Assembly: GCA_964016885.1 (NCBI GenBank)
Contig: OZ024741.1
Coordinates: forward strand, 13,206,001 to 13,270,000
Direction of reading: 5' to 3'
DNA: 64,000 nucleotides
Source: Eledone cirrhosa
Lineage: Eukaryota
In this document: positions 2,680 through 60,310 of the stretch, piece after piece
How the letters are laid out: every line of letters begins with the position of its first letter
Numbering within the stretch: the stretch's first letter is position 1
Program-made: the position numbers and the translations under genes
Notes under the pieces: model-generated
Seen by the model: the letters and a program-made list of their open reading frames with translations, nothing else
What the model was told of the DNA's origin: nothing
The model's database searches: none

Positions 2680-4759
2680 TCACTTACCTTGATCGTGTGG
2701 TGAAGGGACAGTAGAACCGTCCCTTTTGCTGGTCATGGGTGTTTCCAAGAGGATGTCAGTGTATATCCTCTTGGTAACCGACCCTCTGAAGTCTCCAACT
2801 GCGTTGGGGAATTTTTGTTTTAAAGGTTTGTACTGTTCTATTGAGATTTCGATGATGCTTATGTTTGTCGGGAGAGTTCTTGGTGTTGGTGGGGTGTAGT
2901 AATTTTTTTCTGTGATATCTGTGTGCTGCTTTATATATTGTATGAGTTCTTTTTTTGCCATGTTTATGGCTGTGTACTTTTTTGGGGGGAGGGATGATTT
3001 TGTTGCTGTTTTCTTCTTGTTGCTGTTTGGTGTGTGTGTCTTGTGTTTGCGTTGTTGGTGTTTTTGGTGATGCTGGTGGTGGTGTGGTTGTTGTTGTCAG
3101 TGGTGCTTGTGGTGGTGATGGTGGTGGTGTTGCTGCAAGTTTCCTTGCTGCTTTTACCCCTCTTTGTGTGCCTTCGCTTTTGGAGGGTGAATCTAAGGGT
3201 TTTTTTCTTTTTTCTTTTTTGTGGCAGACCGTTTGCCACTTCACTCCCGCCTCAAACTCCATGTCGGATTCCATGGCGTCTGGGAGAGGTATGTGCTCCA
3301 CGGCTGTTGGTGGTGGTAGTGGAGCCCTCTTCTGCAATTTTGTTGCTGGTGTAGCTACTTCAAATGTAGCTATTGGTGTTGCCGCCACTGCTTTAGTTGT
3401 CCGTAGCCTTGGTACGGGTGCTACGGATGTTACCCTCCTACTCACCGTGGAAGGGGCTTCTTCGTTTGTTGCCTGCCCTGCTCTTGGTAGCAGCGGACCA
3501 GGTATTGGAAGGAGAGGGGCGTTCTTCTTCGCTGTCTTCTGCAGGCAAAACGCCCTGAGGCGACCCTTCGACCCACAGAAATAACATTTTGGCCGTCTTC
3601 CTTCTACACTTATAGGGAGTTGGAGTCCTTCCTCGATGTCTATGATATCGGGGATAGCGTCGATACATTCCTGGTCAGTTTGTATAAGCATTTGCATGCT
3701 TATACCTGACCAGTTCTCTCTCCCTATTTTTTCTACTTGCAGCATGGTCGTCCTGTTCTCGATTCCAGCAAAGACAGACGCGGCCAACCAAGGTATGGGC
3801 ACGTCGGGTGGGACCTGGGTCACTTTGACCCTCACAATTTTCTGCCCGCAGTAGGAGGGCACTAAGACTATCTCCTCATTCTTTAGGGTTTCCAAAGAGT
3901 GAGACTTTGCTTCCTGGGGTGTGGCGAAAAGTACGTCTACTGTGGCGTACTTTCTGCCTCGGGTGATGTGGGTTTTGCGTGCCCAGACGCACCCCAAGGC
4001 CTTTTGGATTTGAGCCTCCGTGGCGCTCTCCACCCGATGTGAGATTTTGCTTACGGTGTGGTAAGTCACCGTCCGTAGCTGCTGGTCCTTGAAAAAATCG
4101 GGTGGAGGTTTCAGGGAGACTCTATTGGCGCTTCTTGTCACCATGGCCCTTGCGACTGCCATCTCCTCCTCTGTAACTAACACTGTCTCGATATTTCGGG
4201 CGACACCTGCAAAAGAAGTGGTCCCTTTTTCAGCAGCACCACTATTGCTGCCGCTACTGGTCTTACTGGTAGTGCTGAGGTCGCTGTTACAGGTATCGAT
4301 GTCATTGTTGATGTTTTCGTTGGTACAGTTGTTGGTGTTGTTGTTGTTTTCGTTGATACTGTTGCTGTTGTTACTGTTATTGTGGCTGTTGTTATTATTG
4401 TTGTTTTTGTTGATACTGTTCCTACTATTATTGTTGTTGTGGCTGTTGTTATTGTCATTGTTATTGTCGTTCTCGACCTTACCGCTGTTATTTTTGTTAT
4501 TGTCGTTCTCGACTTTACCGCTGTTATTTTTATTGTTGCTGTTGTTATTGATGGTGTTGTTGTTGGTGTTGTTGTTGGTGTTGTTTGTGTTAGAAACATT
4601 TGTTAATTTTAAATCTGTAACAATCTTCTTTTCCTTTGTAATATTTTCGTTTATATTTACCTCCGCTGGAACGCTGTCTTGTTGACATGCTGATAAAGTC
4701 TCCCTCTCTCTGTGTTGTCTGACAGCGCTCTCTGTTTCTTGTGTTATCCATGTTGACAT
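2680..4759 (-). CDS. Tx1 ORF1 (gag-like nucleic-acid-binding protein) with an Asn-rich N-terminus and one frameshift near the C-terminus
   Basis: 667-aa ORF 2756..4759 contains VEGRRPKCYFCGSKGRLRAFC (degenerate CCHC knuckle). ORF 2680..2961 supplies a C-terminus ending just upstream of the ORF2 ATG. Confidence 0.8.
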
Positions 4760-5256: not shown

Positions 5257-8200
5257 CTACAGCCGCATGACCAGAGTAGGCCCACTCACACGAGCAATTC
5301 TCGCCACATTCACCCACCTTTCAGCAAATGTACTGGGGGGGAGGGCACTTCTCTCTCCACCCTGACCTTCCTTTCCAAGTGAAACTTGAAAAAGTTGATG
5401 AGGGATTGGCCGAAGAGAAAAGTGTCTGTCTTCAGTCCTTTCAACCTCGTCCACCATACAACCTCTTTCGCTACTGCCACCAGACAGAGGAAAATTGCCT
5501 GCCTTTCCAAAAGAAGGCGGCGGGTCGATCTTCACTATGGACTCGGCCGATAGCCGGATCCGTTCTACATGCGACAACAGCTGTTCAACATAACTCCACA
5601 AGTCAGTAATGCACGGACACTGGACGAGTGCGTGCAGTACGGTTTCGTCGCTCTGCGCGCATCTCAGGCAGTTCCGTCTGACAGCACTTCCGTGCCTGTA
5701 GAGTTTATCCCGAACCGGCAGTGCCTCTCGGTAGCACTGCCAAGCAAGGGAAGTCCTCCGGTACAGACTGGTTAGTTCGACTTCGTTGACTCCCAGAGCC
5801 TCTCCGAGTGGGTCGTTGCACTTGCCCACCACTAATCCTCTATAGAACTCGAGAGTGGAAGTTCCACTGACCGCATTGCCCGCCTGGTAGAGGGCAGTGA
5901 GTACCTGGCAACATTCCAGATGCCAGTCACCCAGTCTCGGTCTCTTCTTGACCCAGGACTGCAGCTCAGTCAAAGAAACGAGCTGCGGAAAGGCCCGTCT
6001 GACAAACGGCGACCACACCTGTTCACCATTTAGGCAGAATATCTGGAGATGCCGCAGCCTCAGCGCGTGCCTGCGCATCATTAGCCACGGCATGCCCAGC
6101 CCTCCACGTAGAGGGTGCTGGCAGCTGATGGACCGCCTCACCAGCGGAACCTGACCCTTCCACAAGAATTTGAAGAGGAGCCGCTCCAAGATGGCGAGGC
6201 GCGAACGGGGGCAAGGGACGACGGTCAGACGGTAGTAGATGACGGATGCGATGTACGCGTTCTCCACCTCCGCCCGACCTTTCAGTGATAGCTTCATCCC
6301 AGCTCATTCTGGGTGAGACTGGCTACCCTGCCCGTCACCTCGTCCCAATTCTTATCCCCCTGGAGGTCTGGCCCGAACCAAACCCCTAGAAACTTTACCG
6401 GTCCGTCCGTCCAGCGCCTAACGACGCTGTTGGACGGCATGGACTTGCCTCTCCAGGTGCTGAGTTGCAAGCCCACCGACTTTTCCGGGTTAAGTTTTGC
6501 TCCCGTCAACCTTTCATATTCCTCCAATAAGTTGCCGACCACCTCGATTTCTGAGGTGTCCGACACCATCACGGTGATGTCGTCCGCATAAGCCGACACA
6601 GCCTTTCCGCGTCCCGGTTCGAGCGGGATGCCCTGCAAGAACTCCAGCTTCCGCAGTAAAGGCTCGAGAGTCAATACGTACAGAAGGGAGGAGAGAGGGC
6701 ACCCTTGACGGACCGATCGGGAGACCTGAAACGGTTCCGAGAGGTGGCCATTAATTTTGACCATCGAGCAGGTGCCGCTGTGCATTGCAGCGATCCAGCT
6801 TCTGAAGACGGGGCCGAAGTCAGCCGCCTTGAGGACAGCCTCCATGTACCGATGGTCGACCCTATCGAATGCTTTCGATTGATCTAAATTGATCAGAGCC
6901 CCACCGAAGCCAGGTTTACACCCTACCCTCTCTATGATGTATCGCATTAGGTGGAGGTTGTCGTGTATGGACCTGGTTGCGATTGCGCAAGTTTGCGCCT
7001 CCCCAACCAAATCCCCGACGACAAGCGCCAACTTCTTCGCTAACACCCTGGCCAAAATCTTAAACTCTGTGTTGAGCAGAGTTATGGGCCTGAAATTGTC
7101 TAATGTGTCCCTCTTGTTCTCGTCTTTCCTTATCAGCGGCAATACGCCCCGGCTCACAGAACTGGGAATACTCCCGTTTTGCTGCCAGTTGCAGTAGAGG
7201 GCTTCGAGGAGATTGGATAACAAGTCTGGCATATTTACGTAAAGCTCGTAGGCCAGACCATCCAAACCGGGTGACTTGCGCCTTATGCAGCTGACAAGGG
7301 TATCCTGAATCTCGGCTCAAGTAATTGGCCTTTCGCAACGCCCAGCGTCAGCCGTCGAGAGTTGCGGCAAGCCATCGAGGTAGGGAGTGAAGTCCGCCAC
7401 CATCTCTGACCCGCCACTTCCCCCGAACAACCGAGCAAAATCTTGGCGAAAGGCCTCACACATCCTCTTGGAATCGCTCAGCTCGTGCCCGTCTCGGTCC
7501 GTCAAAGACCGAATCGTGGTTTTATTACCACGCTGCGCCTCTGCCACGCGAGCCCATCGAACAGCTTTGGTTCCCTCGTTTCTCAGAGCATGCGCCTTAG
7601 CTCTGACAATGCAGCCTTCGTGTTTCGCATTGAAGAAATGGTCTAATGCCATTCTCGCCGCTAGCACGTCAGTTGCAATGCCACTACCAATAGCCTCGTC
7701 TAACTTATCTACCAACTCCCCCTCCTTTCTATTTTTCTCTAACGCTACTTATTTGCTAAACTCTATCGACATTACTCTAATCTCTCTTTTGAGAGCCCTC
7801 CCACCACCATCTATTGTTGACGACTCCCCCTGTCAACTTTTTCTTATCTAAATTGTTGACCTGGTCCCTGTAAGCCTTACGTGCCGGAAATGACATGTTT
7901 AGCTTCCAGTAACCAGGTCCTAACCTACGCGTCTTATCTAGGTCGACCATACAGATCACAAACTTGTGATCTGAATAGGCGACCGTTTCAAAACGTGGAC
8001 AGCTTACACTATTTTTGTCTATTTTCCTAATGAATATCCTGTCTATATACGATCTAGATGACCCTATGCTGTTAGCCCAGGTTCACACTGGCGCATTAGC
8101 GAAATCTAGTCGGTACCTGTCAGACAGTTGGAAATGGCTGATCAGGTTCTTGAGGCTTTTGCACCCCCCGCTCCTATCGGATACTCCCACACAGTCCCAG

Positions 8201-18689: not shown

Positions 18690-19265
<576 letters not shown>

Positions 19266-19347
19266 GTGCAAATTTATACGGGAACAAAACAGAGAGGCAG
19301 ACAAATAAAGGTTTATTAGGTTCTCGCTTTTGAGAGTGGGGGGGGGG

Positions 19348-19378
19348 GACGTTTCGGGCATAAGCCCTTCTTCAGGAG
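19348..19378 (-). ncRNA. Minimal hammerhead core lacking a clear stem I partner
   Basis: Minus strand reads CUGAAGA-A-GGGC-UUAU-GCCC-GAAAC-GUC, followed by a poly-C run instead of the 3' strand of stem I. Confidence 0.5.
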
Positions 19379-19405
19379 TAAATAGGTTAGGAAGAGAGTT
19401 CAGCG

Positions 19406-19467
<62 letters not shown>

Positions 19468-19473
<6 letters not shown>

Positions 19474-21653
19474 AAGTGGATGGATACTTCAACAGGTACA
19501 ATGTACTTGTAGAAATATTCAAGTTGTTTATAATACATGTGGTTCAATGGCACTAATTCGAGATACCAGAACAATATAAAAGTAGCGAAACAAACGGTTA
19601 TTAAACAATTTTCTAAATAAATTAAAAAATGATTAAATAATCACCTGTTCAGATGCTGTTACCGACGGTTTCATCATTCCAAAAGATTGGAAATCCAACG
19701 AATTTCCAATGGAAAGAAATGAATCTTCAGACAGCCCTATTTCCACGCTATAAGGTATAGCAAGTAAATATTATGCTCCCTGCCCAACGCATGCGGTCAA
19801 GCCGTTAAAGTGACACACACGCAAATCAGGTCGCTGATAAAAGCTGGATATTATAAACATGTCGAATTGCCACTAAAATTAGCGGCATTATTCAACGTTT
19901 TGTTCTCTACGTAAGGAGAATAAATTATAGAAGTGGATGGATACTTCAACAGGTACAATGTACTTGTAGAAATATTCAAGTTGTTTATAATACATGTGGT
20001 TCAATGGCACTAATTCGAGATACCAGAACAATATAAAAGTAGCGAAACAAACGGTTATTAAACAATTTTCTAAATAAATTAAAAAATGATTAAATAATCA
20101 CTTGTTCAGATGCTGTTACCGACGGTTTCATCATTCCAAAAGATTGGAAATCCAACGAATTTCCAATGGAAAGAAATGAATCTTCAGACAGCCCTATTTC
20201 CACGCTATAAGGTATAGCAAGTAAATATTATGCTCCCTGCCCAACGCATGCGGTCAAGCCGTTAAAGTGACACACACGCAAATCAGGTCGCTGATAAAAG
20301 CTGGATATTATAAACATGTCGAATTGCCACTAAAATTAGCGGCATTATTCAACGTTTTGTTCTCTACGTAAGGAGAATAAATTATAGAAGTGGATGGATA
20401 CTTCAACAGGTACAATGTACTTGTAGAAATATTCAAGTTGTTTATAATACATGTGGTTCAATGGCACTAATTCGAGATACCAGAACAATATAAAAGTAGC
20501 GAAACAAACGGTTATTAAACAATTTTCTAAATAAATTAAAAAATGATTAAATAATCACCTGTTCAGATGCTGTTACCGACGGTTTCATCATTCCAAAAGA
20601 TTGGAAATCCAACGAATTTCCAATGGAAAGAAATGAATCTTCAGACAGCCCTATTTCCACGCTATAAGGTATAGCAAGTAAATATTATGCTCCCTGCCCA
20701 ACGCATGCGGTCAAGCCGTTAAAGTGACACACACGCAAATCAGGTCGCTGATAAAAGCTGGATATTATAAACATGTCGAATTGCCACTAAATAAACAACT
20801 TGAATATTTCTACAAGTACATTGTACCTGTTGAAGTATCCATCCACTTCTATAATTTATTCTCCTTACGTAGAGAACAAAACGTTGAATAATGCCGCTAA
20901 TTTTAGTGGCAATTCGACATGTTTATAATATCCAGCTTTTATCAGCGACCTGATTTGCGTGTGTGTCACTTTAACGGCTTGACCGCATGCGTTGGGCAGG
21001 GAGCATAATATTTACTTGCTATACCTTATAGCGTGGAAATAGGGCTGTCTGAAGATTCATTTCTTTCCATTGGAAATTCGTTGGATTTCCAATCTTTTGG
21101 AATGATGAAACCGTCGGTAACAGCATCTGAACAGGTGATTATTTAATCATTTTTTAATTTATTTAGAAAATTGTTTAATAACCGTTTGTTTCGCTACTTT
21201 TATATTGTTCTGGTATCTCGAATTAGTGCCATTGAACCACATGTATTATAAACAACTTGAATATTTCTACAAGTACATTGTACCTGTTGAAGTATCCATC
21301 CACTTCTATAATTTATTCTCCTTACGTAGAGAACAAAACGTTGAATAATGCCGCTAATTTTAGTGGCAATTCGACATGTTTATAATATCCAGCTTTTATC
21401 AGCGACCTGATTTGCGTGTGTGTCACTTTAACGGCTTGACCGCATGCGTTGGGCAGGGAGCATAATATTTACTTGCTATACCTTATAGCGTGGAAATAGG
21501 GCTGTCTGAAGATTCATTTCTTTCCATTGGAAATTCGTTGGATTTCCAATCTTTTGGAATGATGAAACCGTCGGTAACAGCATCTGAACAGGTGATTATT
21601 TAATCATTTTTTAATTTATTTAGAAAATTGTTTAATAACCGTTTGTTTCGCTA

Positions 21654-21660
<7 letters not shown>
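19468..21660. repeat. 457-bp unit array: about 2.9 tandem copies followed by about 1.9 inverted copies, with one hammerhead per unit (retrozyme-like)
   Basis: TAGAAGTGGATGG starts at 19471, 19928 and 20385 (period 457). The inversion point is at about 20791. Both flanks are (TA)n and there is no ORF. Confidence 0.93.
21044..21124 (+). ncRNA. Type I hammerhead in the 457-bp unit (also 21501..21581 on +; 19655..19735, 20112..20192 and 20569..20649 on -)
   Basis: GCUGU-CUGAAGA-U-UCAUUUC..[two short hairpins]..GGAAUGA-U-GAAACC-GUC-GGUA-ACAGC. Confidence 0.75.
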
Positions 21661-21694
<34 letters not shown>

Positions 21695-22887
21695 ATACTT
21701 GGGGAGGGTCATATTTGTGTAATAATATTGCCAGAATTAATAACAGAACACACTCACTATTTGGTTGGTTTTCGCTTCTGTGTTTTTTATATCGGTTAAT
21801 CTAATTTATTCGGTCCTCAATGTTACCATTGACTGACCAACGGTCAAAAATACATATATATTATAGACACAAACACATATATATAGTCTAACAAAGTTCT
21901 TTCGTGGCACATCTGCAACATCGTCAGTGGTGCTATTATGCTTCCTCCCGTCGTATTGTATGCCTACGCCATCTTTATTTAGTCTGTTTATTTATTTATT
22001 TATTTGTTTATTTGTTTTTTGTCTTCTCTGCGCATGCGTTTGCGTGTGTGTATAGTGTTTTGTTTGATGTGTGTTCGTGTTTGGGTGACTGTGTATTGGT
22101 TATTGTATTCTATCTTAGTTTACTAGTGTGTGTTTATATGTGTTTGTTGTTATTGTGCTTGTGTATGTATTTATTTATTTATTTATACTTCTCTTAGGTC
22201 AGTGTTGTTTGTTTGGGTGTTGTTGCTATTTCATTCATTTTTTCTGTTTAGCCTTGGCCTTCTAAGTTCTATTTTGCTGCCCTCTCTGATTTGCCTATCT
22301 GCTATTTCTATGTTTAGATATTATTCTAATTTCTATGTTGTCTATGTTACCGTCGTGTTGTTGTCTGGCATGTTCGTATAGTACTGAACCGTTATTTCGT
22401 CCTTTTAGTTCCCCCAGTGTTGGTCTATCCTTTCACCTATGCTACGAGCTGTCTCGCCTATGTATGTTGTTGTCATGTTTCTGCAAGTACCCTCTGTACA
22501 TCTTATGCTATAGACTACGTTTCTAGTTTTACAGTTTATCCGGGGGTTTACTTTACATATAATACATTTCCTATTAGTACAGTGGGTTTTCTTAAAATGG
22601 TAGGTTTTGCTGATCAGGGATTTTATGGTGAACAAGAACAACAAATCCTGCAGCTACCACCAAGATTTGCTCTCTACAAAAAGATTAACCCTATTGAGTG
22701 CAAAACGGAGCTGGAAAAGTGTTTCACAAAAATACGTTGGAATGCAAAAGTAAACAACAACAACAACTATACGGACAACAACAACAATAATAACGATAGT
22801 AGTAATATAAACAATAACTCTGAGTATAGAAATAACAGCTATAATAGTAATAGTCATAACATTAACAATAGCAGGAGAGTGAGAAAT

Positions 22888-36171: not shown

Positions 36172-36434
36172 AAAATTTAATATCTGAGCACTCCTTTCCT
36201 TTACCCTTCCTACGGAAATATTTCATATATATATATATTTCGTTTCTGAATTTGTTTAACAAGATTCTTTATCTGAAAACGTGTGTTGAAACCGATATTG
36301 TTATACTTTTGGAGGGTCATGTTGCCAATAAGAAACACACGCACCAGTTGCTTTCACTCCAATTTATTATAAATTAAATTAAAATAATTTTTTTTTAAAA
36401 AAATTTTTTTTTTTAAATATATATATATATACAT

Positions 36435-36481
36435 ATAGGAAAATAGTCAGAACCCCGACGGGTTCTGACTATTTTCCTATT
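36435..36481. repeat. Perfect 21-bp-stem hairpin
   Basis: ATAGGAAAATAGTCAGAACCC-CGAC-GGGTTCTGACTATTTTCCTAT. The arm is related to 31006..31056. Confidence 0.85.
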
Positions 36482-36576
36482 ACCCACTCTATTACCCACT
36501 CTATTACCCAAAGTATCAAGTACTCTGGTGCGTTATGGTCCACCTGGTTCCTGACCACACTTATATATATATATAC

Positions 36577-36636
<60 letters not shown>

Positions 36637-36639
<3 letters not shown>

Positions 36640-37592
36640 TATGAAGAGAGAAGAAACATTTAGATATAATTAGTAATAAAATGTATCATACCTAAACTGT
36701 TCCTAAATTCCTCGACTACGTAGTTTCGTGGCATAAACAAAAACAATTTATCAAAGATATAGAGTCCTTGCGAGGTCTGCCGACTTATCAAGAGGATACC
36801 TCATTTTACTAGTCTCAAGAACGCGTCTACACGACGTGAGAAAGAATCCCAAAAGGCGGAGGCGGAGATAGTCACGCGATATAACGGTCGAGAAACAGAG
36901 CTAAGCCTCTTATAACCACGAAGAAAATACCACGGAGGCGGAGGGGGTATTCATATCGAGGCCGTAGAAGAGGTAGTGAAGAAGGCGAGAAGTATGAGTA
37001 ATGGAAGCTTTCCAGTTGTCCCCACGCTTCAAAGATTGCTCGACCAGAGGGAGTTATTAATATATTTAGAAACACACAGATACATGCGGACACACACATA
37101 TATACATGAATGCATCCGCACCCCTCCGCCTCCGTGGTATTTTCTTCGTGGTTATAAGAGGCTTAGCTCTGTTTCTCGACCGTTATATCGCGTGACTATC
37201 TCCCCCTCCGCCTTTTGGGATTCTTTCTCACGTCGTGTAGACGCGTTCTTGAGACTAGTAAAATGAGGTATCCTCTTGATAAGTCGGCAGACCTCGCAAG
37301 GACTCTATATCTTTGATAAATTGTTTTTGTTTATGCCACGAAACTACGTAGTCGAGGAATTTAGGAACAGTTTAGGTATGATACATTTTATTACTAATTA
37401 TATCTAAATGTTTCTTCTCTCTTCATAATGTATTTTTAACTCTGATACTGGTTCAGTCTAGTTCAAACTGAATTGGTCTGTCCCAGTCATTCATTGAGCA
37501 ACATCGGTGAAGTTGGCACCCTTAACTCACAGTTGGGTGCGGATGCATTCATGCATATATGTGTGTGTCCGCATGTATCTGTGTGTTTCTAA

Positions 37593-37600
<8 letters not shown>
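36637..37600. repeat. Double inverted-repeat element implying a circularly permuted unit of about 590 nt, carrying a hammerhead
   Basis: 36637..36947 is inverted at 37120..37432, and 37059..37122 is inverted at 37534..37600. Both flanks are (TA)n. Confidence 0.88.
37271..37358 (+). ncRNA. Type I hammerhead, U3-A8 core variant (mirror copy 36709..36796 on -)
   Basis: UCCUC-UUGAUAA-GUCGGCA...UGCCAC-GAAAC-UACGUA-GUC-GAGGA. Confidence 0.72.
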
Positions 37601-37677
<77 letters not shown>

Positions 37678-37769
37678 CAGTGGTTAGGGAAGAGATGGGA
37701 CCCCCGCGGCCTTCTATGCCATTCTGTGCGGTCTTTTGAAAGAATCAAAACTTTCCAAGAAATGTTTAA

Positions 37770-37910
37770 TTTCTATTGCTGTGAACCAACATTCTCCTAC
37801 CAAAATCAAGACACCTTTCCCATCAGAAATGGTCGACGCCCATCTAGAGGTTCTGTTGAAACTTAGGACTTCCATACTGCAACCAAATATCAAAATACTT
37901 TCCTACAAAC
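37770..37910 (+). pseudogene. Remnant of a hAT transposase C-terminal (dimerisation) domain
   Basis: CEPTFS..KIKTPFPSEMVDAHLEVLLKLRTSILQPNIKIL resembles the CExxFS..RSxLTDxHL..LR..P motif. Confidence 0.55.
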
Positions 37911-39483: not shown

Positions 39484-40146
39484 TTAATATTTTTTCTTTC
39501 GAGTCTTTTTCCCCTTTTTTTCAGGTGGCAGTTTCATTGCCGAGTCTCTATCCGAATCTGTGACAAAACTGAAGTCGAATTCTTTGAGATTCGGAAGACG
39601 GTTTGTAACTATCAGTCTATAATTACGTATCTTTTCGATTGGGTTTCCGTGTAAAGTGAGCTTCGTCAGATTCGTTAATGGAACCAAATTGTCAACATCG
39701 GACAGGTTAGCTATCTTATTACCATGCAAATATAATATTTGAAGGTTAGGGAACTTTTGTAATTGTAATGAGATGTTAGGTAGACAATTAAAGGAGAGAT
39801 CCAGCCAAGCTAGCTCTATAGGATCTTGGAAATATTCAGCCACCACGGCAGGCAAGATTTCGATGTCGTTGATGATATTGTTGTTTAATCGAAGACTTCG
39901 GCTCAATGACTTTTTCACATGGATTTTATTTGGTTGCTCTTCCAGAGGGGATCCACTGGTCTGCTCTAAAGATTTGTTGAATATGTTTTCATCCGAACTG
40001 AATATACTTGATTCCTCTTCCTTGGACTCGTGGAAAACGAGAGTCTCGATCAAATCCATTTGTTTGAAAGAAAAATCAATCGGTGCGCGTGCATTGGCCA
40101 GTTTGAATATGGTCTTCATATCTTCGTCCGGCAGCTTTTGGTTCAT
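39484..40146 (-). CDS. LRRC51: Leucine-rich repeat-containing protein 51-like (SDS22-like LRRs plus LRR cap), 220 aa, single coding exon
   Basis: Intact ORF with [46 protein letters not shown] and YRLIV...[15 protein letters not shown]. The ATG at 40146 is preceded by a polypyrimidine/AG acceptor. Confidence 0.82.
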
Positions 40147-40184
40147 AATATTTCTCTGCCGGACAAAACTGAGAAGCTTTGCTG

Positions 40185-40217
40185 CTAAAAGACAGACAAA
40201 AATCAAAATAAACAAAA
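40185..40217 (-). promoter_or_regulatory. Putative 3' splice acceptor upstream of the LRRC51-like ATG
   Basis: Minus strand reads TTTTGTTTATTTTGATTTTTGTCTGTCTTTTAG|CAG. Confidence 0.55.
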
Positions 40218-40299
40218 GGCTTCTTACGGAAGCATTTAAATTTGTTTAATTTCTTGTAGTTATTGATGATGACAACGACAACAACAACAACAACAACAA

Positions 40300-48733: not shown

Positions 48734-48782
48734 AAACAATCTTGATAAGGGGTGATAACCCCGAAACAATAGTAGATTGTTT
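48734..48782 (+). ncRNA. Minimal type I hammerhead, U3-A8 core variant
   Basis: AAACAAUC-UUGAUAA-GGGGU-GAUA-ACCCC-GAAAC-AAUA-GUA-GAUUGUUU, with an 8-bp stem I and a 5-bp stem II. Confidence 0.78.
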
Positions 48783-54175: not shown

Positions 54176-57100
54176 TGTTCTTCTGGTTTTATAATTTCAC
54201 AAAGTTTTACTAATAGAGAGAGAGTCGGTTTCTAACATAGACACAAGACTCTCTCATTGAAATTTACACATCAACTAGGTAGATATGTATGTATGCATGC
54301 ATGTGTAGATATGGATATTATTGTATGTGTGGATGTGTATGTTTTGAGTTGTATGTGTGCATGTGTATATGCTTTGTATCTGTACATGTGTATATGCAGA
54401 TATTAGATGCTAAATTTTTGGAATGTTTTACATATTTTTACTGTTCCATTAATGGATTGTACTTGTAATTTCCTAACTAGTTGTGTTCTTTCTGTTCCTG
54501 TGAAGCCCAGATTCTCAAGATTTGCATTGAGGCAGTTACTAACATACCCCAATGTCCCAATAATACCAGGCATAAATCTGAAGGTGTAATCAGGGTGGAG
54601 TATCTGCAGATTTCTCATCAGTTCTGCATAAATATTCTCCTTTTCACTAATCTTTGATATTATATTGGCATCTGCTGGGCAGCTAATTTCCACTACTGTG
54701 CATGCTTTCTTCTCCCTGTCCCATATCATAATATCTGGTCTGTTATGCCTGCATTTTATTGGGGTTTTTACTCGAACATTCCACCACTACTCTTTCATAT
54801 TATGTACATGGATGTCTTCCACATTGTTGTAGCTTTTAATGTGTTTATTATCGGGGCTATCTTTTTTACGAACTGCATTGTACAGTATTTTGGCCACTAC
54901 ATCATGCCTCATAGGTAGATAGTACCGCGATGACATCTTTGGACAGCTGCTGATGACATGGGTGATATCCTCGATGTTAGTTCTGCAGAGTCTGCACTTG
55001 TTATCACATCTAGGTGTTTTGCCTGCATGCCTATCTATTTTGTGAATCAGGTATTTCGTGCTAATCTCCTGTTCTTGGATTGCAAAAGCGTATCCTTCAA
55101 AGTGGGAGCCAATATAGAGGTTGTTGGTCCAATATAGACTACTTTCCTTATCTATATTACTCTCACTCTGGAGTTTCCTGGCAACATATCCATGCATGAT
55201 TTTTTGCTGATAGGCATGCAGTTTTTCATCCATGGATTCACTGCGATACTGCTGAGCGACATCCCTGGGTGTGAGTTTTTGATTATCACACAGGGAATAT
55301 CTCTCAAGGAGTTCCTTCCCAGCTCTCATGATCTTATGTGTTTCATGCAGATAGACTTGCTCGAGAAGCGGGCTCCTACGCTTCGAGGTTCGTGGATGTT
55401 GTCGGAGAGATATGATGCGACAGCCAAATGTTGTCTGGACTGATGTTACGCCTCTGCCTCCCTGCTTACGTTTCAAGTAAAGGCGGTCTATGTCACTGTT
55501 GATGTGGAAGTTTCCGGTGTTGTTCAGTATTTTTCGAGTTCCAACATCAAACTTAAAATCAGACTGAAGAAGCAGAAGAACAGAGCACTAACTACAAGGC
55601 GTTTTGACACTACCAAGCTGAAGAACGGTGACACAGAAGCACAGTTCGAGGCTGCTTTTAGGAATAGATTTGCTGTCCTTGAGAAGTCTGCACCAGGCTC
55701 GGTCAATTGGTGGGAGGAAATGAAGAAGACCATGGAAGCTGCAGAGGAAGAAATCCTGGGCTACAGGAAGTCCCTCAGAGAAGCTTGGGTCAGCGACAAC
55801 ACCTGGCAGCTGATTAATGAAAGGAAAGCCCTACACCAGCAGAGGCATGCCACTATCCCAGAGGCCATCAAGGTATATCAGCAGTATGTTGACAAGGACA
55901 AGGAGGTGAAACGCAGCGCCTAAAAGGACAAACGAATGTGGCTTGAGGGTAAGGCAGAGGAGGCGGAAGCAGCTGTGGTACGCAATGACATGCGCTCTGT
56001 GTACCAAATTGCCAAGAAAATCACCGGCAGCTCTAGAGCTAACTCAGGCCCGGTGAAAGCGAAAGATGGTACGCTGCTTTCCAAGGGTGAAGAAAAGTTA
56101 GTCAGATGGGCTGAACATTTCAAGGAAGTCCTCAACCGACCGGAGCCACGTGTGCCAGCAGATACTAAGGAACCTACTAGTTTGTTGCCTATCAATACTG
56201 ATGACTTCACCGAGAAGGAAGTCCGCATGGCCATCAAAACCCTTAAGAATAACAAGTCACCAGGTATGGATGGCATTTCTGCTGAAATGCTGAAGTCAGG
56301 AGGCGAAAGCATGGTCAAGTGGATGGGCCACTTATGTAATCTTGTGTGGAACATGGGTGAAGTCCCAGAAGATTGGAGAAACGGAGCGCTTGTCTGTATC
56401 CCCAAGAAGGGCAACCTTGCCGATTGTGACAACTGGAGGGGAGTGACCACTTCTCTCCATACCAAGGAAGGTCTATTGTCTGATGATCCTGAACGGCATA
56501 CGTGGCATGGTAGACCGGGAACTGCGAGAACAACAGGCAGGGTTCCGACCAAAACGTTCCTGTGCAGAGCAGATCTTTACGTTACGCCGCATCATTGAGA
56601 GGTACAACGAATTCCAGAGGACCCTCGCCGTCAGCTTCATCGATTTCTCCAAAGCATTCGATAGCATTCATCGGCCGTCACTCTGGAGCATCATGCATGA
56701 GTATGGTCAGCCCCAGAAAGTCATTTCGGCAATCAAACAGATTTACGCAAACTCCAAGTGCTGCATACGGACAGAGGATGGTTACAGTGACTGGTTTGAG
56801 GTGGTTACTGGTGTGCGTCAAGGTTGCTCGCTCTCTCCAATTCTCTTTGCCATAGCCATTGACTGGGTACTAAGAAGAGCGTCTAAAGACCAGGGTATAT
56901 CTTGGGTGGGAGAGCAAAAGTTGTCTGACCTGGACTTTGCGGACGATATTGTTGCACTTGCAGAGAGCACGGCTGACCTGCAAATTATTATGAACAATAT
57001 CAATGTCGAAGCAGGAAGCTTAGGTCTCAATATCAGTGCTCGGATTTCGTCCATCGTCCAATTGAGTATTCCAAACACATTGTGAGCCACTGTTTTGTTT

Positions 57101-58143
57101 TGCGCAGAGAGTTCCGATGACCATATCTTTCTTAATCGGGTGTAGTATTCCCTGGTTACGCGTTCTTTATTACAGATACCATTATAGGATATGTTCTCAT
57201 CTATCCCCAGGTATCTGTAGCAGTCTTCATCAGATATCGGTGAAACAGTTAGACCATTGATGACAATGTTGCTAGATTGGGTTGTTGTTTTTCCCCGCTT
57301 TACAGTCATGTATGAGCATTTATCTTGGCCAAACTCCATTCCTATATCCTTTGAGAACGTTGTAACCAGGTCAAGATTTTTCTTCATCCCATCCATGTTC
57401 TTGGAATAGAGTTTCAGATCGTCCACAAAGAAGTTATGGGTTAGGTTTGTATTTCTGTCCTCCTGTGAGCCAATGATGTATCCCTCACATTTCTTGAGCA
57501 GAAAGGACAAGGGGTTTAATGACAAGATGAACAATATCACAGAGAGACTGTCCCCCTGAAATATACCCCTGCAATATTTTATTTTATCAGTGAAAATAGA
57601 GTCCTCCCTCTCTGTCTTTAACCTTAGGATAGTAGCCCAAAAAGAAGACATCCTCTCTATGGCTCTGACAATAATGTCTGGGACTTTAGCAAGTTGGAGG
57701 GCCTCTATCATCCAAGAGTGGGGAACAGAATCGAAAGCTTTCTTGTAATTCAGCCAGACTGTAGTCATATTCCTCCTAAGTTGTCGCACCTCCGATATCG
57801 CAGTTTTGTTGATTAGGAGTTGTTCAGCACATCCCCAAACCCTTTCCTTTCCAGCTGCTTGTTCATCTGTGATGATGTTATTATTTTCACAGTGATCTTG
57901 GAGGAATAGGTTTAGGCTGGCTGTATACATCTTATACATCAGGTTCTGGCATGCAATGGGTCGGTAGTTTATTGCCAAGTGGGTGTCTTTGTTCTTGGGG
58001 ACCAGTAAGGTTTGTGCTAATGTCAACCATTCTGGTATAAGTGTATCTCCCTTAAGAACTTGTTGGTAGAGGTCAGTAAGATACCTCCGATAGAATATTA
58101 GTTTTTTGTACCAGTAGCCGACAATCATGTCTCTTCCAGGTGG
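54176..58143 (-). mobile_element. 5'-truncated R4/Dong-type element, interrupted by an RTE fragment and flanked by (TATG)n
   Basis: RT motifs NYRPIACQN, GIFQGDSLS and FFVDDLKLY. Zinc finger CRLC..EDITHVISSC..RHD. RLE motif HNRPDI.IWD..C.VVEISCP.D..K...Y. Confidence 0.9.
55541..57035 (+). mobile_element. Internal RTE-clade LINE fragment (linker plus RT up to FADD)
   Basis: RWAEHFKEVLN, KSPGMDGI, NWRGVT, QQAGFR, DFSKAFDSI, GVRQGCSLSP and DFADDI. It lacks both natural ends. Confidence 0.9.
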
Positions 58144-58169
58144 TATGTATGTATGTATGGTTTGTGTCA

Positions 58170-60310
58170 GGTCGCTCTCGAGTGCTACTGGTAACATGTA
58201 TCCCAGTACAACCTGTCTCATTGTCGGTTGTCGGCGACTAAACTGGCGACCCCACCAAGCTTGCTCGGTGAGGAGGGTGATATTTGGACACCCTGCAGGA
58301 TGAAATACAAGACCTGGCAAAGGGCGGAGGAACTCAGCAGAGTCAACGGCCATCCAAATAGTAGTTTATTTTTGCCTGGGAGTGAAAGACCGCCAGTTGT
58401 TGTCACACCCCTTTCTAGGAGAAGGAAACTCTGAAAAACAACCTGCGGCTTCAGAAGCATCCGATGATGTTGACCAGTTCTCCTTTTCGGGTAGTGTTTT
58501 CGATGCTCAGAGAGTGGGATTGGTCGAGTGCAAGGCCTTTCCCCACTTAAAAAACCTTCAAAGCACAGGCATTGCTTGTTCAGGATATGTTATAGGTTCG
58601 TGTGGCTGGCCGTAGCCTAAAAGTGCACCAAACTCTATAATCTGATAAGCGATTGCAGTACTCTTGGAAGCTGTTGGCAAGGTTCTCGCAAGCCTTTTGC
58701 TCAACAGATTTGAGGAGGATATCTGTCCTACAGCTATTCCAGAATCAAAGAGTTGTTTTAGAAGAGGGAGGGGAACAGTTGACATGATTTTCTCTGAAAG
58801 ATAAATACAAGAAAACTGCATTGAGCAGTGTGTGTCCCTATATCAAGTCTTTGTCGACCTAACAAAGGCCTTTGACACAGTTAACGGAGATACACTCTCG
58901 ATAATACTTGGAAAAGTAGGATGTTTACCCACGTTTGTGAGTATGCTAAAACAGTTGCACAGACATATGAAAGCTCGGGTTACCTTTAATGATCAACTAT
59001 CTGGGGAAATCTCAATTGAAAACGGGGTAAAGCAAGGTGATAATCCTGCTCCTACGCTTTTCTTCATCTTCTTTGCTGCCTTGCACACACATGCTTTCCA
59101 TGATTATGACAGAGGCATTCTTTTACGGTTCAGAACCCCTGGAAAAGTGTTCAACTTAAGAAGGTTTAAAGCTAAGATAAAAACCTTTCAAGCTCAGTTC
59201 AGAGAGCTTCTTTACGCTGATGACGCTGATTTTCTAGCACACACACAAGCTGACATGCAACACATTATGGACCGTTTCACATCCTCGTGTACAGGATTTG
59301 GGCTTACAATCAGCCTTATAAAGACCAAAGTAATGTTTACCGCTGCTCCTGGAGAACCATATACTGAACCCATATCATGGTTGATGGAACCAGGCTGGGA
59401 GTAGTAGATAAATTTGTCTACTTGGGTAGCACACTCTCAAATGATGACTCCTTGGGTGCTGAAATACATCTGCGCATCCAGAAGGTCTCTGTTGCCTTCG
59501 GAAAATTGAAAAAGATAGTTTGGGGATATCACAACATTACCAACAATCCCAAGGTGTTTGTGTATAGATCATGTGTTCTGTCTTCTCTTTTATACTCCAC
59601 CGAACCCTGGGCGCTATTCCGTAAACACAGCAAATTGCTTGAGCTTTTTCAGCAGAAATGTTTATGGCACATATTCAACATCAAGTGGCAAGACAGAACT
59701 CCTGGCATCCATGTCCTTATCAAAGCAGAATGTCCAAGCACAGAGTTTCAAGTAACATCTTCTCAAATGCGCTGGATAGAACATATCGTCCGCATGAAAG
59801 AAAGCAGGATCCCGAAGTAATTGTTTTACGATGAGCTCTATCTTGGAAAAAGACCTCAACACAAACCAAAAATGAGATTCAGGGACAGCATCAACAACAA
59901 TCTCAAAGAGCTGGCATTTTATATAGACAACTGGGAGGAGATAGCTCTAAATAGGGCTGAGTGGAGAAAGCTCATAAAGGGCAGTAGCAAAACTTTTGAG
60001 GATTGTCCTCTAGAACAAACAACTGAAGTGTCAGCTTCGGAAGGGCTGTACTCGCAGTCTTGATGAAGTCATCAGTAGTTAGACATGCAGTTTCTATCAC
60101 CGTGTACTCATCTCAAAGGTTGGTTATGTTTAATCACCTGAAGTCACATGAAAGGATACCCACCTGCAACACCACTCAACAAAGACCTGGCAAAACAACG
60201 TGTGTGACATGCAACAAAGTGTGTAGAACTAGTTCCGGACTAAAAAAAACACATGGTGGTACATAAAGATTGTGTCCCACAGGGTGATACCACTGGTCCT
60301 GTGAAAAACA
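58170..60310 (+). mobile_element. RTE/BovB-like LINE with a 5' UTR, APE deleted, degenerate RT and C-terminal zinc fingers
   Basis: FVDLTKAFDTV, GVKQG..APTLF, LLYADDA, FVYLGSTLS, RW..HIVRMKESRIPK and CVTCNKVCRTSSGLKK. Confidence 0.85.

What the first reader, a model, noticed from the sequence alone, without database searches (positions are those of the whole stretch)
36637..37600. Segment order that closes into a circle: A-C-B on one strand and B-D-A on the other
Seen: the plus strand at 37120..37600 reads A(~312)-C(~100)-B(~65). The minus strand from 37122 down to 36637 reads B-D(~110)-A. Together they imply a template order A-C-B-D-A of about 590 nt, with the hammerhead in A. Inference: both arms were copied from a circular RNA or tandem multimer in one insertion event, although no complete unit is present on either strand.
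Basis: partly seen in the sequence, partly recalled or inferred. Interest (0 to 1): 0.75.

Follow-up and report, generated by a model that had tools for sequence, protein, structure and literature searches.

The report
Two-armed hammerhead retrozyme insertion in TA repeat
This is one copy of a very abundant 591-base non-coding repeat, lying in a TA microsatellite as two back-to-back partial copies that together close one circle; it was likely written from both broken DNA ends by a Penelope-type reverse transcriptase copying one small, probably circular, RNA, and this kind of element (an animal retrozyme) is already known.

Summary
The + strand at 37121-37603 reads A(318)-C(96)-B(69). The - strand from 37123 down to 36629 reads B-D(108)-A. 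The implied unit is 591 nt.

That unit exists elsewhere in the genome as uninterrupted head-to-tail arrays of up to 6.9 units. A 35-mer from it has at least 5,000 exact matches.

In 34 mapped loci the family sits in (TA)n. Every arm has a variable 5' end. Its 3' end lies at one of two fixed unit positions, ~313 or ~478. In 22 of 22 assessable two-armed loci, one arm ends at each site. A second 457-nt family in the same window does this in 12 of 13 loci.

All units and both arms of a locus share one haplotype, while loci differ. This points to a unit-length, probably circular, template.

The "hammerhead in A" is a complete type I architecture with a U3-A8 core. Rfam does not detect it, but the variant is published for Penelope-like elements. 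An autonomous Penelope-like element in this genome carries a U3-A8 hammerhead and ends on a near-identical TA-rich motif in (TA)n.

Verdict: a new member of a known kind (non-LTR retrozyme with a Penelope insertion footprint). RNA, circle and self-cleavage are untested.

The parts
36566..36635 (.). Left flank: (TA)n microsatellite, one half of the target
   Evidence: Sequence. The same kind of flank is seen at 44 of 46 locus ends in the first 23 loci.
36636..37123 (-). Left arm, sense strand = minus. It runs from unit 415 through 591/1 to 311 (B-D-A; 0.83 unit). Its 3' end lies at start site alpha (unit ~311-318) against (TA)n.
   Evidence: k-mer diagonal mapping to a natural unit; blastn.
36947..37054 (-). 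Segment D (unit 484-591), present only in the left arm
37121..37123 (.). Head-to-head junction of the two arm 5' ends, with 3-nt microhomology (CCC)
   Evidence: Sequence. Junction overlaps of 0-3 nt occur at 14 of 16 two-armed loci of the first sample; one locus has a 3-nt filler and one a 39-nt extra piece.
37121..37598 (+). Right arm, sense strand = plus. It runs from unit 1 to 478 (A-C-B; 0.81 unit). Its 3' end lies at start site beta (unit ~478-483) against (TA)n.
37439..37534 (+). Segment C (unit 319-414), present only in the right arm. C plus B is the 165-nt 'tail' between the two start sites.
37271..37358 (+). Hammerhead-like motif (type I) in the right arm. It has helix I of 5 bp, core UUGAUAA (U3/A8), helix II of 6 bp with one bulge and a 44-nt insert, GAAA, a palindromic helix III, and GUC. 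The predicted cut is after 37353.
   Evidence: Descriptor scan and shuffles; cofold of two copies; not found by Rfam.
36709..36796 (-). The same hammerhead-like motif in the left arm; the predicted cut is after 36714, read on the minus strand
37599..37680 (.). Right flank: (TA)n microsatellite, the other half of the target

Best explanation
The locus is one insertion of a 591-nt non-coding, hammerhead-motif-bearing repeat (an animal non-LTR retrozyme) into a (TA)n microsatellite, and it was likely made by a Penelope-like element's reverse transcriptase/GIY-YIG endonuclease priming cDNA synthesis from both cut DNA ends on one unit-length, probably circular, RNA. SHOWN: the unit order A-C-B-D closes and exists as tandem arrays elsewhere. 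Every arm's 3' end lies at unit ~313 (alpha) or ~478 (beta) against (TA)n, and 5' ends are variable. Two-armed insertions always point their 3' ends outward and carry one alpha end and one beta end. All units and both arms of a locus share one haplotype. The unit has no ORF longer than 75 aa. INFERRED: (1) arrays are transcribed on the A>C>B>D strand. (2) The U3-A8 hammerhead, acting as a dimer through its palindromic helix III, would cut after GUC (unit 233), and a host ligase would close the 591-nt monomer. (3) A Penelope-type enzyme cuts both strands of (TA)n; one 3'-OH starts at alpha and the other at beta of the same RNA. (4) Each polymerase runs 0.1 to 7.5 units round the template. (5) The two cDNA ends are joined head-to-head with 0-3 nt of microhomology. 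In this window the alpha-primed arm ran 0.83 unit (minus strand) and the beta-primed arm 0.81 unit (plus strand), so neither holds a whole unit but together they cover the circle. My odds: Penelope-type two-ended priming about 0.8; unit-length (circular or re-copied) template about 0.6.
For: Family and unit: 40 of 40 scored own-genome hits to A+C are about 100% identical, many spaced exactly 591 nt. A 35-mer of the unit has 2605+2395 exact matches against 0 for the reversed control. Contigs of 621 and 620 nt that close the cycle occur in two other data sets.

Ends: two samples were mapped, 23 loci and 11 further loci chosen for odd spacing. All arm 3' ends that abut the flank are at unit 307-313 or 478-480. 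Of the 46 locus ends in the first sample, 44 lie directly on (TA)n.

One-of-each rule: 16 of 16 and 6 of 6 assessable two-armed loci of the 591 family obey it. So do 12 of 13 loci of the unrelated 457-nt family. Together that is 34 of 35.

Polarity: all 37 two-armed insertions mapped are '- then +'. So are all 15 mixed clusters among the first 100 pattern hits.

Same template: 7 haplotypes occur among 23 loci at five polymorphic sites, yet 24 of 24 arms with two or more informative units are homogeneous. In 12 of 13 loci informative in both arms the arms are identical, and the thirteenth differs by one private base. Subfamily indels (units of 588, 590, 592 and 595 nt) recur in every unit and both arms. 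The 457 family is homogeneous at its one polymorphic site in 21 of 21 loci. There are 114 and 107 seamless crossings of the predicted ribozyme sites.

Hammerhead: the descriptor match in the sense strand occurs in only 1 of 3000 shuffled units. Two copies cofold with an intermolecular helix III. A U3-A8 core, a bulged helix II and a palindromic helix III are published for Penelope-element hammerheads (PMC4209133, passages).

Penelope link: the genome has 10,597 GIY-YIG candidates, and 150 of 150 scored pass the Pfam cut-off. Locus L044 holds an element with RVT_1 (28.0 bits, just under the 29.6 cut-off) plus a C-terminal GIY-YIG domain (28.3 bits, cut-off 22.6). It carries a U3-A8 mini-hammerhead in both pseudo-LTRs, is a 1.2-unit partial tandem, and ends on TTTCTAATATAT against (TA)n; site beta here reads TTTCTAAATATAT.

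Literature: tandem/inverted insertions, a tail at one end and (TA)n bias (PMC8557442, passages). Cleavage and extension of both strands and two internal start sites (PMC11167929, main text).
Against: No RNA of the element has been seen, so transcription, cleavage and circle are all inferred.

No autonomous element with sequence similarity to the unit was found. There is none among 18 GIY-YIG loci beyond low-complexity matches. The unit against the L044 pseudo-LTR gives z = -0.8.

The hammerhead core departs from CUGANGA. No Rfam family matches at E<=10. Helix II carries an unusual 44-nt insert, and the monomer fold is no better than shuffles (z -0.67). The descriptor was written after I had seen the candidate, so 1 in 3000 is optimistic.

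The tail is 165 nt here and 105 nt in the 457 family, against 30-40 nt in published Penelope-like elements. In vitro, PAc showed no difference in start site between strands and used unprocessed RNA.

The classical twin-priming prediction, that the beta arm should begin where the alpha arm was primed, is not met. One 457-family locus (L112) has the same end on both arms.

The loci sampled are the best-scoring or hand-picked ones, not a random sample. (TA)n flanks hide any target-site duplication, and no empty site was found.
Confidence: 0.65

Rival explanations
1. The machinery is the same (Penelope-type two-ended target-primed reverse transcription), but the template is a long linear multimeric transcript of an existing genomic array. 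It is neither cut nor circularised.
For: Arrays of up to 7 units exist to be transcribed. In vitro, a Penelope element used unprocessed RNA, ribozyme mutants inserted equally well, and no reads ended at the hammerhead site (PMC11167929). Arm 5' ends do not pile up at the predicted cut: 2 of 34 arms start within 12 nt of it in the 457 family, and 5 of 39 start at unit 243-256 in the 591 family.
Against: A multimer can only hand down what its parent array holds and can only get shorter. Yet seven or more haplotypes and several indel subfamilies each fill all units of their arrays and both arms. That pattern needs a passage through a single unit followed by re-amplification.
Confidence: 0.2
2. 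The template is a unit-length linear RNA, and the polymerase repeatedly jumps from its 5' end back to its 3' end. This would be template jumping or telomerase-like re-copying, with no closed circle.
For: Homogeneous arrays are equally predicted. Penelope reverse transcriptases are relatives of telomerase (PMC8557442 abstract). Subfamily indels cluster at unit 479-481, which is start site beta (21 of 69 run breaks).
Against: There are no junction scars that vary from round to round. The 114 crossings of unit 233/234 (591 family) and 107 crossings of the predicted cut (457 family) show no indel there. The indels at 479-481 are identical in every unit of an array.
Confidence: 0.1
3. The repeat is moved by a LINE-type (non-Penelope) reverse transcriptase, with L1-style twin priming producing the inversions.
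For: Head-to-head arms with 3' ends outward are also what twin priming gives. LINE-type reverse transcriptase ORFs lie in the window at 5257-7316 (-) and 56818-58365 (-).
Against: There is no poly(A) or simple 3' tail. There are two fixed internal start sites with a one-of-each rule. About 70% of insertions are two-armed: 16 of 23 in the 591 family and 13 of 22 in the 457 family. Other features also point away from LINEs: the Penelope-type hammerhead motif, the (TA)n target, and an end motif shared with an RT+GIY-YIG element of this genome.
Confidence: 0.04
4. The structure is a DNA-level product: satellite expansion, re-integration of extrachromosomal circular DNA, or fold-back repair at a fragile (TA)n tract.
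For: (TA)n tracts are fragile and palindromic. Tandem repeats can spread as circular DNA.
Against: A double-stranded donor entered by palindromic TA ends should be copied in both directions. Here all 39+34 arms of the two first samples have the same strand's 3' end at the flank. They also show two fixed start sites and ragged 5' ends, the polarity of a single-stranded template read 3' to 5'.
Confidence: 0.02

Closest known systems
Metazoan non-LTR retrozymes (Cervera and de la Pena 2020, PMC7229834, passages read; Li, Clavereau and Pollet 2026 preprint 10.64898/2026.07.22.740005, abstract and passages read)
   Same: A small non-coding unit in dispersed tandem arrays, with one type I hammerhead-like motif per unit. 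It coexists with Penelope-like elements. The literature proposes rolling-circle reverse transcription of a circular RNA for these elements.
   Different: The unit is 591 nt, against about 170-400 nt for the RNAs described. The hammerhead core is U3-A8, not C3-G8. The passages I read do not describe head-to-head arms, fixed 3' ends or a microsatellite target. In PMC7229834 the words 'inverted' and 'microsatellite' each occur 0 times. In the preprint 'tail' occurs 0 times. No RNA has been seen here.
Penelope-like elements, insertion architecture (Craig et al. 2021, PMC8557442, passages; Frangieh et al. 2024, PMC11167929, main text)
   Same: Partial tandems with an adjacent inverted 5'-truncated copy, and an extension present at only one end. 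The target is (TA)n or AT-rich. Both DNA strands are cut and extended. There are two internal reverse-transcription start sites, with a hammerhead upstream of them: the first start site lies 80 nt (591 family) or 90 nt (457 family) after the predicted cut, against about 85-92 nt in PAc.
   Different: This element has no ORF. The tail is 165 nt, not 30-40 nt. The start sites are TA-rich and can pair with the target, whereas in PAc they were not homologous to the target. The one-of-each rule is strict here, while in vitro PAc showed no strand difference.
Penelope-element minimal hammerheads with U3-A8 covariation (Cervera and de la Pena 2014, PMC4209133, passages)
   Same: A U3-A8 core in place of C3-G8, a short helix I (5 bp), a long helix II with a bulged base, and a small palindromic helix III that implies action as a dimer.
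   Different: Helix II carries a 44-nt insert. The motif sits in a tandem non-coding unit rather than in a pseudo-LTR of a coding element.
L1 twin priming
   Same: Both DNA ends prime on one RNA, giving inverted arms with 3' ends outward and microhomology at the central joint.
   Different: There is no poly(A). The second start site is fixed rather than opportunistic. The direct arm does not begin where the inverted arm was primed. Most insertions are two-armed.

Membership tests
Metazoan non-LTR retrozyme | Small repeat unit in head-to-tail arrays dispersed over the genome | tested here: met
   Start-to-start spacing is exactly 591 at many loci. Arrays reach 6.9 units. A 35-mer of the unit has at least 5,000 exact matches.
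Metazoan non-LTR retrozyme | A type I hammerhead in each unit | tested here: inconclusive
   The full architecture is present at unit 151-238 in the sense strand. However, the core is U3-A8, there is no Rfam hit, and activity is untested.
Metazoan non-LTR retrozyme | Non-coding | tested here: met
   The longest ATG ORF on a unit trimer is 75 aa, with no Pfam match at E<=1. LTRs are absent by construction. A primer-binding site and polypurine tract were not looked for.
Metazoan non-LTR retrozyme | Expressed as linear and circular monomer RNA | not testable with these tools
   No run on record as RNA holds the sequence.
Penelope-like element (as mobiliser; the repeat itself is not a member) | ORF with reverse transcriptase plus GIY-YIG endonuclease | tested here: not met
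   The unit has no such ORF. The genome has them in abundance: 150 of 150 scored GIY-YIG hits pass the cut-off, and L044 carries RVT_1 plus GIY-YIG.
Penelope-like insertion footprint | Partial tandem plus an adjacent inverted 5'-truncated copy | tested here: met
   Two-armed loci number 16 of 23 in the first 591 sample and 13 of 22 insertions in the 457 sample (21 loci; L099 holds two insertions). All have 3' ends outward.
Penelope-like insertion footprint | Extension ('tail') at one end only, bounded by two start sites | tested here: met
   34 of 35 two-armed loci have one end at each site. The length differs from the published 30-40 nt: 165 nt and 105 nt.
Penelope-like insertion footprint | AT-rich or (TA)n target | tested here: met
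   44 of 46 locus ends lie directly on (TA)n. The same holds for the 457 family and for the L044 element.
Hammerhead ribozyme, type I | Core CUGANGA ... GAAA ... cleavage triplet UH | tested here: not met
   There is no CTGANGA on either strand of 36629-37603. The box reads UUGAUAA. GAAA and GUC are present. The two changes keep the 3-8 pair as U-A, a covariation published for Penelope hammerheads.
Hammerhead ribozyme, type I | Helices I, II and III around the core | tested here: met
   Helix I has 5 bp. Helix II has 6 bp with one bulge. Helix III forms only between two copies, as a 10-nt palindrome.
Hammerhead ribozyme, type I | Match to the Rfam hammerhead models | tested here: not met
   No hammerhead hit at E<=10. 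The same scan also missed two motifs with canonical cores in this window, so the test is insensitive to this minimal type.
Hammerhead ribozyme, type I | Self-cleavage | not testable with these tools
   This needs in vitro transcription of a dimer.
Helitron / rolling-circle DNA transposon | Fixed 5' and 3' termini, with head-to-tail arrays only | tested here: not met
   5' ends are variable and arms are inverted.

The most novel reading that the evidence does not exclude
These insertions are a genomic recording of a Penelope-type enzyme pair working on one circular RNA. Each of the two cut DNA ends is handed to a different fixed start motif on the same ring, and both polymerases then run round it. 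This would be the first direct evidence that animal retrozyme circles are the retrotransposition template, and that the Penelope 'tail' marks a division of labour between the two strands.
Probability: 0.45. Interest if true: 0.7.

Novelty: new member of a known kind. Interest (0 to 1): 0.5.

Why it matters
Retrozymes are thought to spread through circular RNAs copied by Penelope-type enzymes, but that step has not been shown. This family is very young and very numerous, so its copies preserve three things. First, the start points of copying: two fixed sites, one per DNA end. Second, the polarity of copying. Third, the fact that every unit of an insertion comes from one unit-length template. 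That gives concrete sequences (two start motifs, a U3-A8 hammerhead, a (TA)n target) with which the mechanism can be tested in vitro. It also means head-to-head 'foldbacks' in TA microsatellites of this genome should be annotated as retroelement insertions, not assembly errors or satellites.

Tried and rejected
- **Rfam.** The whole window at gathering score gave 0 hits. Region 36400-37800 at E<=10 gave no ribozyme. The same scan over 19200-21700 missed two motifs with canonical hammerhead cores, so I treat the Rfam negative as weak.
- **RNA runs.** No RNA holder is listed.
- **Laid contigs.** No contig bridges an empty site. Parts without cover tell nothing.
- **Autonomous partner by similarity.** I found none among 18 GIY-YIG loci beyond low-complexity matches to segment B. 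Local alignments of unit against L044 pseudo-LTR, 457 unit against pseudo-LTR, and 591 against 457 gave z = -0.8, 1.1 and -1.4.
- **Search with the L044 pseudo-LTR/ORF junction.** It returned only internal full-length copies and said nothing about termini.
- **Fold energy.** The monomer motif has z = -0.67, which is no evidence either way.
- **Conservation of the motif.** Among 70 units there are only 5 shared and 46 private substitutions. There is no power to test conservation or covariation.
- **'One-armed insertions prefer site beta'.** Counts are 13 beta to 6 alpha over both families. This is not significant, so I dropped the idea.
- **Classical twin-priming prediction.** The beta arm should begin at about unit 314; it does not.
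- **Looser arm merging.** It gave false end positions inside microsatellite flanks. I use that call only for arm orientation.
- **The 75-aa ORF of the unit.** No Pfam family matches.
- **Earlier findings.** The first look-up by place and the look-up by sequence returned nothing.
- **Not done.** I made no literature search aimed at the one-of-each rule. I can only say that the passages I read do not state it.
Full report
**Observation**

The repeat finder gives two inverted repeats. The first is 318 nt at 99% (36629-36946 against 37121-37438; segment A). The second is 69 nt at 96% (37055-37123 against 37535-37603; segment B). blastn of each segment against the whole window shows that C (37439-37534, 96 nt) and D (36947-37054, 108 nt) are single-copy here.

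The + strand therefore reads A-C-B, and the - strand from 37123 downward reads B-D-A. The sum is 591 nt. The arms meet at 37121-37123 with a 3-nt overlap. Both outer ends run into (TA)n.

**The unit exists as a closed order elsewhere**

The window lies in a 3.0-Gb genome. Searching it with A+C gave 485 candidates. All 40 scored were about 100% identical, and many stood head to tail exactly 591 nt apart.

I cut a natural unit from one such array and numbered it so that unit 1 = window 37121. This gives A = 1-318, C = 319-414, B = 415-483, D = 484-591.

A 35-mer of the unit has 2605 forward and 2395 reverse exact matches, and the reversed control has none. The sum is exactly 5,000 and may be a cap. 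Contigs from two other coded data sets (X4, X5) hold one record each of 621 and 620 nt. Each runs A-C-B-D-A and closes on itself, that is 591 or 590 nt plus the repeated overlap.

**Anatomy of the family**

I mapped 23 distinct loci from the best hits. I added 11 more, chosen from the pattern hits because their spacing was not 591. Neither sample is random.

- In the first sample, 16 loci are two-armed and 7 one-armed.
- 44 of 46 locus ends lie directly on (TA)n. The exceptions are L058 on its 5' side, which abuts (GA)n next to (TA)n, and L052 on one side, which abuts unique sequence.
- Read on the A>C>B>D strand, every arm has its 3' end at the flank. That end lies at unit 307-313 (site alpha, ...CATAATGTAT) or at unit 478-480 (site beta, ...CTAAATATAT).
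- The 5' ends meet in the middle at variable positions. They overlap by 0-3 nt in 14 of 16 loci. One locus has a 3-nt filler and one a 39-nt extra piece.
- Arms run from 0.1 to 6.9 units.
- In 16 of 16 two-armed loci of the first sample, and 6 of 6 assessable ones of the second, one arm ends at alpha and the other at beta. L144's second arm is cut off by other sequence and cannot be assessed.
- Among the first 100 pattern hits, 15 clusters hold both strands, and all 15 are '- then +'.

**A second family shows the same rule**

The window holds a second, unrelated 457-nt family at 19463-21662. It has 2.9 units on one strand and then 1.9 on the other, inside (TA)n. Each unit has a canonical hammerhead core (CUGAAGA ... 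GAAAC).

I mapped 21 loci, which hold 22 insertions because L099 holds two. Arms end 90 nt or 195-197 nt after the predicted cut. Of 13 two-armed loci, 12 have one end of each kind. L112 has the 90-nt end on both arms.

Together the two families give 34 of 35. If each arm chose its site independently, at most half would be mixed.

**Polarity implies a single-stranded template**

TA ends are palindromic. They could enter a double-stranded donor at the TA-rich sites in either direction. Yet all 39 and 34 arms of the two first samples were extended in the same sense, copying the A>C>B>D strand from 3' to 5'. This is the footprint of target-primed reverse transcription from both sides of a double-strand cut.

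**The template was one unit long**

Five substitution sites are polymorphic among loci. They define 7 haplotypes in 23 loci.

- Within a locus, all units agree: 24 of 24 arms with two or more informative units are homogeneous.
- In 12 of 13 loci where both arms are informative, the arms are identical at these sites. The thirteenth (L002) differs by one private base.
- One locus (L050) carries four further variants in every unit of both arms.
- Length subfamilies (units of 588, 590, 592 and 595 nt) carry their indels in every unit and both arms.
- The 457 family is homogeneous at its one polymorphic site in 21 of 21 loci.

A long transcript of a parent array can only pass on what the parent holds, and each generation is 5'-truncated. 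A new mutation could then never come to fill a whole array. The data need a passage through a single unit that is then copied round and round.

A closed circle is the simplest form of this. A linear monomer with precise end-to-end jumping is not excluded. There is no scar at the predicted ribozyme site in 114 crossings (591 family) or 107 crossings (457 family).

For this window, both arms carry A at unit 199, which none of the other 22 loci has. This supports one event from one template.

**The hammerhead**

No CTGANGA lies in 36629-37603 on either strand, and Rfam finds no ribozyme at E<=10. The same Rfam scan also misses two motifs with canonical cores at 19340-19380(-) and about 21040-21120(+). 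It is blind to this minimal type.

By eye, and then with a descriptor, unit 151-238 in the sense strand has the following parts:

- Position: + arm 37271-37358; - arm 36709-36796.
- Helix I: 5 bp.
- Core box: UUGAUAA.
- Helix II: 6 bp with one bulged base and a 44-nt insert.
- GAAA.
- Helix III: a C-G pair around the palindrome UACGUA.
- Cleavage triplet: GUC.

Positions 3 and 8, which pair in the active fold, are U and A instead of C and G. One of 3000 dinucleotide shuffles of the unit matches the descriptor on either strand. The descriptor was written after I had seen the candidate, so this figure is optimistic.

Two copies cofold with an intermolecular 10-bp helix III. The monomer folds no better than shuffles.

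Cervera and de la Pena 2014 (PMC4209133, passages) describe Penelope-element hammerheads with exactly this U3-A8 covariation, bulged long helix II, short helix I and palindromic helix III. They report that these act as dimers with low activity in vitro.

The family is too uniform to test covariation or conservation.

**Link to Penelope-like elements**

The genome has 10,597 GIY-YIG candidates, and 150 of 150 scored pass the Pfam cut-off.

Locus L044 holds a 938-aa ORF. [quoted passage not shown] The element is a 1.2-unit partial tandem with a period of 4979 nt. It carries a 38-nt U3-A8 mini-hammerhead in both pseudo-LTRs. Its 3' end reads ...TTTCTAATATAT against (TA)n, about 148 nt after the predicted cut, and TA-rich repeats lie on its 5' side as well. 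Site beta of the 591 family reads TTTCTAAATATAT.

The same mini-hammerhead lies beside two other GIY-YIG ORFs (L045, L048).

No sequence similarity beyond these short motifs links the unit to that element or to 17 other GIY-YIG loci. The actual partner is not identified.

**What the papers say**

- Craig et al. 2021 (PMC8557442, passages) list four features of Penelope-like elements: partial tandems, an adjacent inverted 5'-truncated copy, a 30-40-bp tail at one end, and a (TA)n bias in Naiads.
- Frangieh et al. 2024 (PMC11167929, main text) show that a purified Penelope protein cuts and extends both DNA strands and starts at two internal RNA sites that bound the tail. Its hammerhead cuts 26 nt after the start codon and its start sites lie at +111 to +118. 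It is predicted to be a dimer. It uses unprocessed RNA in vitro, with no strand difference in start site.
- Here the first start site lies 80 nt (591 family) or 90 nt (457 family) after the predicted cut. The tail is 165 or 105 nt.
- Cervera and de la Pena 2020 (PMC7229834, passages) and Li et al. 2026 (preprint, abstract and passages) define animal non-LTR retrozymes and propose Penelope elements as their mobilisers. The passages I read do not describe two-armed insertions, fixed ends or microsatellite targets.

**Mechanism proposed**

Shown: the geometry, the polarity, the two sites, the one-of-each rule, and haplotype homogeneity.

Inferred:

1. Arrays are transcribed on the A>C>B>D strand.
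2. The dimeric hammerhead cuts after unit 233, and a host ligase closes the monomer.
3. A Penelope-type enzyme, perhaps a dimer holding one RNA, cuts both strands of (TA)n. It hands one 3'-OH to alpha and the other to beta.
4. Both polymerases run round the template for a variable distance.
5. The two cDNA ends are joined by microhomology.

In this window the alpha arm stopped after 0.83 unit and the beta arm after 0.81 unit. That is why no strand holds a whole unit.

**Rivals**

- A linear multimer as template is the main rival. The in vitro data favour it, but it does not explain the homogeneous derived haplotypes.
- End-to-end jumping on a linear monomer cannot be told from a circle with DNA alone.
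- A LINE-type enzyme or a DNA-level process fits poorly with the fixed internal start sites and the strict polarity.

**Earlier notes of this scan**

I consulted these. They describe the same 591-nt family and sister families in this genome with the same reading. They are not independent evidence. One note (e1-8664908) proposed jumping across a break in the RNA, and that prompted.

**Verdict**

The thing is a new member of a known kind. Its value lies in how clearly many young copies record the copying rules. RNA, circle, cleavage and the partner enzyme remain untested.

Noticed in passing
window 19463-21662: A second retrozyme-like family with a 457-nt unit: 2.9 units on the minus sense, then 1.9 units on the plus sense, inside (TA)n. 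Each unit has a canonical hammerhead core (CUGAAGA ... GAAAC CGUC). The genome search gave 1,655 candidates. Arms end 90 or 195-197 nt after the predicted cut.
   Followed up: yes
window 19266-19409: A 144-nt insert between two (TA)n tracts carries a minimal hammerhead on the minus strand (CUGAAGA, a 4-bp helix II, GAAAC GUC). It is probably a short end fragment of a Penelope-type element. Rfam misses it at E<=10.
   Followed up: partly
window 48734-48782 (+): A compact U3-A8 hammerhead-like motif (helix I 8 bp, helix II 5 bp), single copy. It lies just downstream of what reads like the C-terminal part of a LINE-type reverse transcriptase.
   Followed up: no
591-nt unit positions 413-435 (window 37103-37123 on the minus arm): Arm 5' ends cluster here: 9 of 39 arms in the first sample, against about 1.5 expected, including this window's left arm (unit 415). 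The region is the 5' side of a strong predicted hairpin (unit ~417-453). It could be a polymerase stop, a favoured joining site or a transcript start. Unexplained.
   Followed up: partly
591-nt unit positions 479-481, 194 and 346: Length subfamilies (588-595 nt) differ by small indels concentrated at three places. One of them is exactly start site beta. The indels are identical in all units of an array.
   Followed up: partly
window 36250-36360, 36439-36476 and 36478-36560: Sequence just left of the insertion belongs to a far more abundant repeat: summed contig depth is about five times that of the 591 unit in run X1. It includes a perfect 38-nt hairpin at 36439-36476. A similar motif (TTGTTATACTTGGGGAGGGTCAT...) follows (TA)n at 21680 and in locus L045, so many (TA)n tracts may belong to another element.
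   Followed up: no
window 5257-7316 (-) and 56818-58365 (-): Reverse transcriptase ORFs: RVT_1 plus zf-RVT in the first, RVT_1 in the second. Neither has GIY-YIG, so both are LINE-type elements.
   Followed up: partly
window 39484-40245 (-): An open frame with leucine-rich repeats (LRR_9, LRR_4, LRR_8), possibly a host exon, beside long (AC)n/(GT)n tracts.
   Followed up: no
L044 2582-2812 / 3013-3243: Another head-to-head inverted pair (231-nt arms, 99%, 200 nt apart), next to the (TA)n where the autonomous Penelope-like element ends.
   Followed up: no
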